Below are positions 58,523 through 59,068 of a stretch of 64,000 bases of DNA, in pieces; the first letter of the stretch is position 1, and each line of letters begins with the position of its first letter. A program made the translations under genes and the position numbers. The notes below the pieces were generated by a model. The model had not been told where the DNA came from. It saw nothing but the letters and a program-made list of their open reading frames with translations, and searched no databases. Source of the DNA: Escherichia coli O157:H7 (GTDB taxonomy: Bacteria > Pseudomonadota > Gammaproteobacteria > Enterobacterales > Enterobacteriaceae); the NCBI RefSeq assembly GCF_013167455.1, contig NZ_CP038328.1. One strand, written 5' to 3'.

Positions 58523-59068
58523 AGCATCCTCTTAGGTTCAGAAGCTTAAGCACGTAATCGGTTATGTTTTCAAAAGTGCAAAACTAGCGAGTTCGGGCTT
58601 CATATCAGTGAATATTTGCCTGTCTGAAATGAACTCATGGATTCATTTTCAAATAAAAAACGCTCTGTAATATGACGGCGGTCACACTTATTAGCTGGAA
58701 GGTGACTTTATGTGACTACCATCACTTTAATAATCGAAATTTCATGCCCGTTTCAGAAAATAAATCATAAAAAACACAAACCAGATGACCGTATTAATTG
58801 TTTATGCCGAAAACGGGCATTCCTGGCTTGGGTGAATAGAAAAATGACCGTTTTGATAAATATTTTTAAGAGCGGTCATTTTTAATGGGGTTATAAAAAG
58901 AGAACTTGCAGTTATTTACTGTGATTAGTTGAACTAGGTCACAAAATATAAGCTTGTGAATTTCTTTCTTGTTAATCAGGAAGAAGATGGTGGGTAATTA
59001 AACGGCTAATTCAATAGTGTGAAAGGAACAACATTATTGCCCTGTTTTGAATCAGAGAGAGGTAGCTA
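58523..59068. promoter_or_regulatory. fucPIKUR / fucAO divergent control region
   Basis: 546-bp AT-rich gap; CRP-like site TGTGACTACCATCACT at 58711-58726; repeated ATGACCG motifs and an ATGCCCGTTT / AAACGGGCAT inverted repeat. Confidence 0.6.

What the first reader, a model, noticed from the sequence alone, without database searches (positions are those of the whole stretch)
58523..59068. fuc divergent control region: CRP-like site plus repeated ATGACCG motifs
Besides a CRP-like site (TGTGACTACCATCACT, 58711-58726), the region carries three copies of ATGACCG (58785-58791, 58844-58850 and, inverted, 58873-58879) and an inverted repeat ATGCCCGTTT / AAACGGGCAT (58744-58753 / 58811-58820). These are candidates for FucR operator half-sites, whose consensus I cannot recall precisely.
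Basis: seen in the sequence. Interest (0 to 1): 0.35.

Follow-up and report, generated by a model that had tools for sequence, protein, structure and literature searches.

The report
Known FucR and CRP sites, fuc control region
The repeated ATGACCG motifs and the CRP-like site are real, strongly conserved and already published as the binding sites through which the fucose activator FucR and cAMP-CRP switch on the two divergent E. coli fucose operons; the only addition here is how the sites are spaced.

Summary
The window is E. coli O157-type, and 58523-59068 is the fucP/fucA intergenic region.

**Already published**
- The CRP-like site (58711-58726) is the published site OCrp1.
- ATGACCG/CGGTCAT is the core of the FucR motif (..AAAACGG[T/G]CATT).
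- Box 58811-58820 is OFucR2. O157 has G where K-12 has T.
- Box 58870-58879 is OFucR3. Mutating it cut fucAO induction more than 50-fold in K-12 (Zhang et al. 2024).
- The "inverted repeat" is two oppositely oriented FucR boxes.

**Not chance**
- Five of the window's 30 CGGKCAT matches lie within 136 bp.
- All five boxes keep position and orientation in 46 Enterobacterales loci, from Escherichia to Yersinia and Photorhabdus.

**Extension found here**
- The boxes form three 36-bp split palindromes, ATGMCCG-N22-CGGNCAT. The spacer length is almost invariant, its sequence is free and AT-rich.
- They fall into two rigidly spaced modules: OCrp0-40-OCrp1-43-O1-41-O2 on the fucP side, and O3-74-OCrp2 on the fucA side. 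A variable linker joins them.
- Box 58844-58853 and the pairing are not mentioned in the papers I could read.

The parts
52658..53389 (-). fucR, the cognate regulator (DeoR family: HTH_DeoR + DeoRC)
   Evidence: Annotated as the L-fucose operon activator in an identical O157 genome. ORF found. Pfam PF08220 at 6.7e-23 and PF00455 at 1.6e-45.
57206..58522 (-). fucP CDS, first gene of fucPIKUR
   Evidence: ORF and annotation.
58586..58596 (-). SrsR (YgfI) box equivalent: GCTAGTTTTGC here, GCTGGTTTTGC in K-12
   Evidence: PMC9181523 Table 1; sequence. It lies outside the FucR cluster. Zhang 2024 found it not relevant to fucAO.
58637..58655 (-). Inferred fucPIKUR core promoter: -10-like GAAAAT/TATTTG, TSS about 58637-58643
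   Evidence: Inferred from OCrp0 acting as a class II site at about -41.5 and from a conserved block at 58645-58660. The TSS was not verified from text I could read.
58671..58686 (.).
   Evidence: One mismatch to TGTGAN6TCACA. Half-sites are invariant in 24 taxa. It lies on the fucP side of the IS5 target, as published.
58695..58698 (.). Position of the K-12 IS5 target CTAG; reads CTGG in this O157-type sequence
   Evidence: Alignment with MG1655. The target is given as -374..-371 in PMC11894529.
58711..58726 (.).
   Evidence: Exact match to TGTGAN6TCACW. Invariant half-sites. It sits 39-40 bp from OCrp0 in 44 of 45 loci. Published as a fucPIK CRP site.
58744..58779 (.). O1: FucR box 1 (ATGCCCGTTT, 58744-58753, minus orientation) plus a degenerate partner (AAAAACACAA, 58770-58779)
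   Evidence: Box 1 is conserved in 41 loci, 43-44 bp from OCrp1. The partner position is conserved as AAAnCCACA in Enterobacteriaceae and is a full box (AATTCGGTCATA) in four Photorhabdus loci.
58785..58820 (.). O2: box 2 (ATGACCGTAT, 58785-58794) - N16 - box 3 (AAACGGGCAT, 58811-58820, which is OFucR2)
   Evidence: Pattern hit. The half-site offset is 28 in 43 of 44 loci. OFucR2 was validated by mutation in K-12. T>G relative to K-12.
58844..58879 (.). O3: box 4 (ATGACCGTTT, 58844-58853) - N16 - box 5 (GAGCGGTCAT, 58870-58879, which is OFucR3)
   Evidence: Pattern hit. In E. coli it is a 44-bp near-palindrome, 58840-58883 (I1). The offset is 28 or 29 in 41 of the 42 loci where O3 was found (30 in one). 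It lies 73-74 bp from OCrp2 in 40 of 40. The OFucR3 mutation gave a more than 50-fold loss.
58928..58943 (.). OCrp2, the essential CRP site for PfucAO (GTTGAACTAGGTCACA)
   Evidence: Sequence given in PMC11011485. Conserved. Its centre is 70.5 bp upstream of the published TSS.
58996..59006 (+). PfucAO -10 (AATTAA, 58996-59001) and TSS (C at 59006)
   Evidence: 5'RACE in K-12: the TSS is the 63rd nt upstream of the fucA ATG and the -10 lies at -73..-68. The sequence is identical here.
59018..59033 (.). OCrp3, an auxiliary CRP site in the fucA 5'UTR (TGTGAAAGGAACAACA)
   Evidence: PMC11011485. Found by the scan in Escherichia only.
59069..59716 (+). fucA CDS, first gene of fucAO
   Evidence: ORF and annotation.

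Best explanation
**What it is.** This is the divergent control region of the E. coli L-fucose regulon (fucPIKUR to the left, fucAO to the right).

**Shown, in K-12 papers plus sequence identity here**
- cAMP-CRP binds OCrp0 and OCrp1 for fucPIKUR, and OCrp2 and OCrp3 for fucAO.
- The DeoR-family activator FucR, loaded with fuculose-1-phosphate, binds boxes of consensus AAACGG[T/G]CAT.
- The box next to OCrp2 (OFucR3, 58870-58879) is essential for fucAO induction. OFucR2 (58811-58820) contributes about 30%.
- The authors propose that FucR mainly helps CRP occupy OCrp2, and that CRP then recruits RNA polymerase.

**Shown here by comparative analysis**
- There are five full boxes plus one degenerate box.
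- They are arranged as three 36-bp split palindromes, ATGMCCG-N22-CGGNCAT. Spacer length is nearly invariant; spacer sequence is free and AT-rich.
- O1 and O2 sit at fixed distances from OCrp1 and OCrp0. O3 sits at a fixed distance from OCrp2. Only the O2-O3 linker varies.

**Inferred**
- Each split palindrome is bound as a unit by a two-fold symmetric FucR oligomer. Its two winged-helix domains contact half-sites 26 bp apart, about 2.5 helical turns, across a bendable spacer.
- O1 and O2 form the fucPIKUR module and O3 the fucAO module.
- Centre-to-centre distances of 40, 43, 41 and 74 bp are close to whole helical turns. That would put the FucR and CRP complexes on one face of the DNA, where they could cooperate.
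For: **Identity of the locus and the regulator.**

**Published motif, sites and mutant phenotypes.** PMC11011485 and PMC11894529.

**Match to K-12.** 99% mean column identity, with all boxes retained.

**Clustering and pattern statistics.**

**Conservation.** All boxes and CRP sites appear as islands of conservation in 24 representatives of about 17 genera and in 46 loci.

**Spacing.**
- O2 half-site offset: 28 in 43 of 44 loci.
- O3 half-site offset: 28 or 29 in 41 of 42 loci (30 in one).
- OCrp1-O1: 43 or 44.
- O1-O2: 40-42.
- O3-OCrp2: 73 or 74.
- O2-O3: 48-114.
- Spacers: only 41-49% pairwise identity and 76-82% A+T.

**Specificity.** 78 of 78 paired-motif hits in 446 kb of related loci lie upstream of fucA.

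**Fit with published mutants.** The module split matches OFucR3 (in O3) being critical for fucAO and OFucR2 (in O2) being minor.
Against: **Against pairing as a requirement**
- The published -206 truncation (V6) starts at window 58863. It removes boxes 3 and 4 and keeps box 5, yet retains about 70% of induced fucAO activity. That is the same loss as the OFucR2 point mutant.
- So box 4 and the pairing are not required for fucAO activation at saturating induction in that reporter.
- Half-sites 2.5 turns apart face opposite sides of straight DNA, which is awkward for a simple dimer.

**Gaps in the evidence**
- No FucR footprint or EMSA was found in the papers I could read.
- There is no solved full-length relative.
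- The role of boxes 1, 2 and 4 at the fucPIKUR promoter is untested.
- The fucP TSS I used is inferred.
- PMC11894529 mentions putative operators OR0 and OR1 without sequences. I cannot tell which of my boxes they are.
Confidence: 0.85

Rival explanations
1. Each 10-15 bp box is an independent, complete FucR site, as treated in the published work. On this view the constant N22 spacing reflects something other than simultaneous binding by one oligomer, for example phasing relative to CRP or RNA polymerase.
For: - Box 5 alone, in the -206 truncation, supports about 70% of fucAO induction.
- The DAP-seq motif is a single 15-mer.
- A fucose biosensor study fitted a Hill coefficient of 1.
Against: - The offset between oppositely oriented boxes is 28 bp in 43 of 44 loci for O2 and 28 or 29 bp in 41 of 42 for O3, while the intervening sequence is unconstrained.
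- The same geometry recurs three times per region.
- All 78 paired hits in 446 kb lie upstream of fucA.
- The reporter assay ran at full induction, where cooperativity may be masked.
Confidence: 0.3
2. The inverted repeats act through nucleic-acid structure, as a cruciform, an RNA hairpin or a bidirectional terminator between the operons, rather than as protein sites.
For: - O3 is a 44-bp near-palindrome.
- Either strand of 58735-58890 folds better than shuffles, with z of -2.0 and -2.9.
Against: - The terminator scan found nothing, and there was no Rfam match above noise.
- The region lies upstream of the published fucAO TSS (59006) and the inferred fucP TSS, so it is not expected to be transcribed.
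- The variable fourth positions of the left and right halves do not covary: 59% are complementary, Fisher p = 0.21, and 13 further operators have a non-pairing A.
- Spacers are not complementary in other taxa.
Confidence: 0.03
3. The boxes are bound by a regulator other than FucR, for example SrsR/YgfI or, in EHEC, the fucose-sensing FusR.
For: - SrsR binds the fucA/fucP spacer in gSELEX.
- The window is O157-type. From my own knowledge, O157 carries the FusKR system.
Against: - The SrsR box (TCAGATTTTGC-like) maps to 58586-58596, far from the cluster and unlike the motif.
- SrsR does not affect fucAO.
- The boxes match the FucR DAP-seq motif, and mutating them removes fucose induction.
- The boxes are conserved in genera not known to carry FusKR.
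Confidence: 0.03

Closest known systems
E. coli K-12 fucPIK/fucAO intergenic region: OCrp0-3, OFucR2, OFucR3 (Zhang et al. 2024 IJMS, PMC11011485; Zhang et al. 2025 NAR, PMC11894529; FucR motif from Baumgart et al. 2021)
   Same: - Same locus, same 546-bp length and 99% mean column identity.
- OFucR3, OCrp0, OCrp1, OCrp3, the -10 element and the TSS are identical.
- The layout is the same.
   Different: - About ten substitutions separate O157 from K-12: OFucR2 CGGTCAT>CGGGCAT, the IS5 target CTAG>CTGG, one base in the OCrp2 spacer and one in the SrsR box.
- The published description treats FucR sites as single 15-mers. It names four, and only two are given with sequences in text I could read.
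- Box 4, the degenerate box 1', the N22 pairing and the two rigid modules are not mentioned.
GlpR and DeoR operators of E. coli (DeoR family). From my own knowledge, not tested here: GlpR has a roughly 20-bp palindrome of abutting 10-bp half-sites WATGTTCGWT, repeated in tandem; DeoR has a 16-bp palindrome with looping between distant operators.
   Same: - The regulator family is the same.
- Half-sites are inverted, with ATG at the outer ends.
- The FucR half-site ATGMCCGWT resembles the GlpR half-site ATGTTCGWT.
- There are multiple operators per control region.
   Different: - FucR half-sites are separated by 16 unconstrained bp, 26 bp centre to centre, instead of abutting.
- FucR is an activator that works with CRP, not a repressor.
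- The resemblance to GlpR is recalled from memory and is only a lead.
RhaS/RhaR and CRP at the E. coli rhamnose promoters (from my own knowledge)
   Same: - A deoxyhexose regulon in which a pathway-specific activator binds a long inverted repeat of two separated half-sites upstream of, and in synergy with, a CRP site.
   Different: - RhaS and RhaR are AraC-family proteins with two HTH motifs per monomer and 17-bp half-sites.
- There is no sequence or family relationship to FucR.

Membership tests
FucR (DeoR-family) operator of the fuc regulon | Matches the experimentally derived FucR motif ..AAAACGG[T/G]CA[T/A]T, with CGG and CA most conserved | tested here: met
   Five boxes carry CGGKCAT with an A-rich 5' flank. 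The profile from 230 orthologous boxes is A/T-T-x-A-A-A-A-CGG-K-CA-T-T-T. The consensus is quoted in PMC11011485.
FucR (DeoR-family) operator of the fuc regulon | Corresponds to a site whose mutation abolishes or reduces fucose induction | tested here: met
   58866-58880 is identical to OFucR3 (more than 50-fold loss). This is by sequence identity only; nothing was tested in O157. Boxes 1, 2 and 4 have no published mutants that I found.
FucR (DeoR-family) operator of the fuc regulon | Lies in the control region of fuc operons, with fucR encoded in the locus | tested here: met
   It lies between fucP and fucA. fucR is at 52658-53389 and has HTH_DeoR and DeoRC domains.
FucR (DeoR-family) operator of the fuc regulon | Conserved in orthologous regions (phylogenetic footprint) | tested here: met
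   46 loci with divergent fucP-fucA keep the boxes in position and orientation. They stand out as conservation islands in the alignment. The paired motif occurs only upstream of fucA.
FucR (DeoR-family) operator of the fuc regulon | Direct physical binding by FucR with fuculose-1-phosphate (footprint or EMSA) | not testable with these tools
   The papers I could read contain no footprint. The Baumgart 2021 and Podolny 1999 papers are not held.
cAMP-CRP binding site | Match to TGTGA-N6-TCACA | tested here: met
   58711-58726 matches 9 of 10 core positions and 58671-58686 matches 9 of 10. The match count in the window is not above chance by itself.
cAMP-CRP binding site | Published as a functional CRP site of the fucPIK promoter | tested here: met
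   OCrp0 and OCrp1 flank the IS5 target at -374..-371. That target maps to 58695-58698, between the two sites. The primary paper, Podolny 1999, could not be read.
cAMP-CRP binding site | Conserved half-sites and fixed spacing to the promoter partner | tested here: met
   TGTGA and TCAC are invariant in 24 taxa. OCrp0-OCrp1 spacing is 39-40 bp in 44 of 45 loci.
RNA hairpin / intrinsic terminator | G+C-rich stem followed by a U run, or covariation that maintains pairing | tested here: not met
   No terminator-like site, no Rfam family and no covariation.
Contiguous palindromic DeoR/GlpR-type operator | Abutting inverted half-sites (16-20 bp palindrome) | tested here: not met
   The half-sites are separated by 16 unconserved bp. 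The family definition is from my own knowledge.

The most novel reading that the evidence does not exclude
FucR does not recognise isolated 15-mers. It recognises 36-bp split palindromes (ATGMCCGWTT-N16-AAWCGGNCAT) whose half-sites lie 2.5 helical turns apart across a bendable AT-rich spacer. Three such operators are wired into two rigid, promoter-specific CRP-FucR modules joined by a free linker: OCrp0-OCrp1-O1-O2 for fucPIKUR and O3-OCrp2 for fucAO. This would define an unusual operator geometry for the DeoR family. It would also give a concrete structural basis for the proposed model in which FucR helps CRP bind. It includes a fully conserved box (58844-58853) and a conserved degenerate box (58770-58779) that the published maps I could read do not mention.
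Probability: 0.55. Interest if true: 0.35.

Novelty: already known. Interest (0 to 1): 0.2.

Why it matters
Fucose use matters for gut colonisation by commensal and enterohaemorrhagic E. coli, and the fuc region is a classic model for IS5-mediated activation.

The comparative result here is a modest, testable refinement. It covers the invariant N22 pairing, the two rigid CRP-FucR modules and an unreported conserved box. It predicts which boxes control fucPIKUR, for which no FucR site has been validated. It also predicts that FucR binds as a symmetric oligomer across 36 bp.

One strain difference is worth noting. The O157-type allele lacks the CTAG that IS5 uses in K-12 to activate fucAO.

Tried and rejected
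- **RNA families and terminator/promoter scans.** Rfam gave only a noise-level hit (tsr25, E = 0.14). The scans found no terminator and no consensus sigma-70 promoter.
- **Hairpin or cruciform reading.** The folds are somewhat better than shuffles. There is no covariation and the region is not expected to be transcribed, so I rejected it.
- **SrsR as the binder.** Its box is elsewhere, at 58586-58596, so I rejected it.
- **Solved structures of a FucR relative.** I looked for one to judge whether a dimer can span 26 bp. Nothing turned up at E <= 1e-3, and only weak partial hits at E <= 10 (7l6l DeoR C-terminal domain, RpiA). The geometry could not be tested.
- **Primary sources.** Podolny 1999 and Baumgart 2021 are not held. 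The positions of OR0 and OR1 and the fucP TSS could not be read from text.
- **Further literature searches.** Searches for FucR with DAP-seq or RegPrecise found nothing further on the E. coli motif. The biosensor and MtnR papers gave no site information.
- **Pairing box 3 with box 4.** These are head-to-head with 23 nt between them (I3). Their spacing varies from 20 to more than 50 bp among taxa, so I rejected them as a unit.

Full report
**Observation**

The segment 58523-59068 is the 546-bp spacer between fucP (57206-58522, minus strand) and fucA (59069-59716, plus strand). The window is 100% identical here to E. coli O157 genomes, and the region is present in 5,011 of 5,426 complete E. coli genomes. 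fucR lies in the same window (52658-53389, minus strand) and has the HTH_DeoR and DeoRC domains.

**Is it more than chance?**

CGGKCAT occurs 30 times in the 64-kb window, against 20.4 +/- 4.8 in shuffles. Five of those matches fall within 136 bp, at 58744-58879. From the density elsewhere about 0.05 would be expected, a probability of about 3e-9 by my arithmetic. ATGACCG-N22-CGGKCAT occurs twice in the window, both times here, and never in 100 shuffles. The CRP-like match is not significant on its own (12 observed against 6.9 expected for at most one mismatch). Its support comes from conservation and the literature.

**What is published**

Zhang et al. 2024 (PMC11011485) give the following for K-12:
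- They mapped the fucAO TSS 63 nt upstream of the fucA ATG (window 59006).
- They validated two CRP sites. OCrp2 is essential and OCrp3 is auxiliary.
- They quote the FucR DAP-seq consensus of Baumgart et al. 2021: G(A)C(T)C(G)A(C)A(G)A(TC)A(T)CGGT(G)CAT(A)T(CG).
- They validated two FucR sites by mutation. Mutating OFucR2 (CCGAAAACGGTCATT) lost about 30% of induced activity. Mutating OFucR3 (TTAAGAGCGGTCATT) lost more than 50-fold.
- They propose that FucR mainly helps CRP occupy OCrp2.

Zhang et al. 2025 (PMC11894529) place OCrp0 and OCrp1 on either side of the IS5 target CTAG at -374..-371. [quoted passage not shown]

Aligning the window with MG1655 gives 99% mean column identity:
- OFucR3 is identical to 58866-58880.
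- OFucR2 corresponds to 58807-58821, with T>G at the position the consensus allows to be T or G.
- The CTAG maps to 58695-58698, which reads CTGG here.

One arm is OFucR2 and the other is an oppositely oriented box upstream. In K-12 that inverted repeat is imperfect, which argues against it being an element in its own right.

A scan of one genome per species with FucA returned 80 loci. Of these, 46 have the divergent fucP-fucA arrangement. They span Escherichia, Salmonella, Citrobacter, Klebsiella, Raoultella, Kluyvera, Enterobacter, Yokenella, Kosakonia, Mangrovibacter, Buttiauxella, Hafnia, Rahnella, Yersinia and Photorhabdus.

All five boxes recur in the same order and orientation (minus, minus, plus, minus, plus). 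In an alignment of 24 representatives, the boxes and the CRP half-sites stand out as near-invariant islands in otherwise poorly conserved AT-rich DNA. The interpretation passes the test that could have refuted it.

**Anatomy beyond the published description**

*Pairing*
- Each minus-oriented box has a plus-oriented partner exactly 28 bp downstream, giving ATGMCCG-N22-CGGNCAT over 36 bp.
- For O2 (58785-58820) the offset is 28 in 43 of 44 loci. For O3 (58844-58879) it is 28 in 32 loci, 29 in 9 and 30 in one.
- The 16-bp centre of the spacer is only 41-49% identical between taxa and 76-82% A+T. Length is constrained and sequence is not.
- Box 1 (58744-58753) has at the same offset a degenerate but conserved partner. 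It reads AAAnCCACA in Enterobacteriaceae and AAAAACACAA in E. coli (58770-58779). In four Photorhabdus loci it is a full box, AATTCGGTCATA.

*Spacing of centres*

| Interval | Distance (bp) |
|---|---|
| OCrp0-OCrp1 | 39-40 |
| OCrp1-O1 | 43-44 |
| O1-O2 | 40-42 |
| O2-O3 | 48-114 (variable) |
| O3-OCrp2 | 73-74 in 40 of 40 loci |

The fixed distances are close to whole helical turns. The region therefore consists of two rigid modules joined by a free linker.

*Specificity*

In 446 kb of related loci the paired motif occurs 78 times, and every hit lies upstream of fucA.

**Mechanism**

*Shown* (by the K-12 literature and sequence identity): FucR with fuculose-1-P and cAMP-CRP co-activate both promoters. 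OFucR3 plus OCrp2 are essential for fucAO.

*Inferred from the anatomy:*
- Each 36-bp split palindrome is bound as a unit by a symmetric FucR oligomer whose two winged-helix domains reach half-sites 26 bp apart.
- O1 and O2 serve fucPIKUR, and O3 serves fucAO.
- In-phase spacing lets FucR and CRP cooperate.

The module split fits the finding that OFucR3 (in O3) is critical for fucAO while OFucR2 (in O2) is minor.

*The main counter-evidence:* the -206 truncation begins at window 58863. It lacks boxes 3 and 4 and keeps box 5, yet retains about 70% activity, no worse than the OFucR2 point mutant. Pairing is therefore not essential for fucAO activation at full induction. It may instead set affinity or cooperativity at low inducer, or the boxes may act independently (rival 1).

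**Rivals rejected**
- *Nucleic-acid structure.* O3 is a 44-bp near-palindrome and folds if single-stranded. Against this, there is no terminator or Rfam match. The region lies upstream of both start sites. The variable fourth bases of the left and right halves do not covary (59% complementary, p = 0.21, plus 13 non-pairing cases).
- *SrsR.* Its box is at 58586-58596 and is unrelated in sequence.

**Comparison and novelty**

The closest known thing is the same region in K-12, so the finding is already known. Against other DeoR-family operators (GlpR and DeoR, recalled from memory and not tested), the half-site looks related: ATGMCCGWT against ATGTTCGWT. The 16-bp split, however, fails the contiguous-palindrome feature. 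No solved full-length relative was found with which to test the geometry.

The papers I could read never mention a palindrome, an inverted repeat or a dimer, nor box 4. I could not consult Baumgart 2021, Podolny 1999, RegulonDB or RegPrecise, so the refinement may be partly recorded there.

**Verdict**
- The feature is already known, and interest is low (0.2).
- The most novel reading not excluded is that split-palindrome operators sit in two rigid CRP-FucR modules. I give this a probability of about 0.55 and modest interest.

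Noticed in passing
window 58695-58698; also 58585-58588 and 58933-58936: The K-12 IS5 target CTAG, used in all propanediol-positive mutants, reads CTGG in this O157-type sequence. Two new CTAG tetramers exist instead, one inside the SrsR box equivalent and one in the spacer of OCrp2 (PMC11894529). The classic IS5 activation route for fucAO may therefore differ in this lineage.
   Followed up: partly
window 58954-59001: Zhang et al. 2024 give the PfucAO -35 as 'TTGtgA' at -96..-91. In the sequence, TTGTGA lies at -115..-110 (58954-58959), 36 bp from the -10 AATTAA (58996-59001). At -96..-91 the sequence reads TAATCA. The paper's -35 sequence and coordinates disagree, so the -35 assignment is uncertain.
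   Followed up: partly
window 58811-58820 compared with K-12 (L003): OFucR2 reads CGGGCAT in O157, in another E. coli, in Escherichia sp. MOD1 and in E. albertii, but CGGTCAT in K-12. The laboratory-strain allele on which the published site was defined may therefore be the derived one. The position is T, G or A across taxa.
   Followed up: partly
window 58770-58779 and orthologous positions: The degenerate right half of O1 is itself conserved as AAAnCCACA across Enterobacteriaceae, rather than drifting freely. In four Photorhabdus loci it is a full FucR box. Why a non-consensus half-site is maintained is unexplained.
   Followed up: partly
window 58645-58660 (minus strand): The block ATTTTCAAATAAAAAA is highly conserved just downstream of OCrp0. 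It probably holds the fucPIKUR -10 region (GAAAAT or TATTTG on the minus strand), which would put OCrp0 at about -41.5. The consensus promoter scan found nothing in the whole spacer.
   Followed up: partly
L044, L050, L056 (Edwardsiella) about 2189-2280; L061 (Serratia sp. DD3) about 2311: Paired FucR-type operators also sit upstream of fucA in Edwardsiella and Serratia sp. DD3. In the Edwardsiella loci the neighbouring permease is only 45-49% identical to FucP and lies further away. In Serratia sp. DD3 no FucP homologue was detected in the locus.
   Followed up: no
L032 ('Martelella alba') and L016 ('Serratia marcescens 1001295B'): An assembly labelled as an alphaproteobacterium, and one labelled Serratia, carry fuc loci that look enterobacterial or Klebsiella-like (FucA 89-92% identical to E. 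coli, with the same operator layout). These are probably contaminated or mislabelled assemblies.
   Followed up: no
L034-L041, L045-L047, L049, L051, L053-L055, L057-L066, L068-L070, L073 and L027: 34 of the 80 FucA-homologue loci (82-88% identity) have no divergent fucP next to the aldolase gene. This is a second genomic context for a FucA-like aldolase in Citrobacter, Atlantibacter, Enterobacter, Buttiauxella and others.
   Followed up: no
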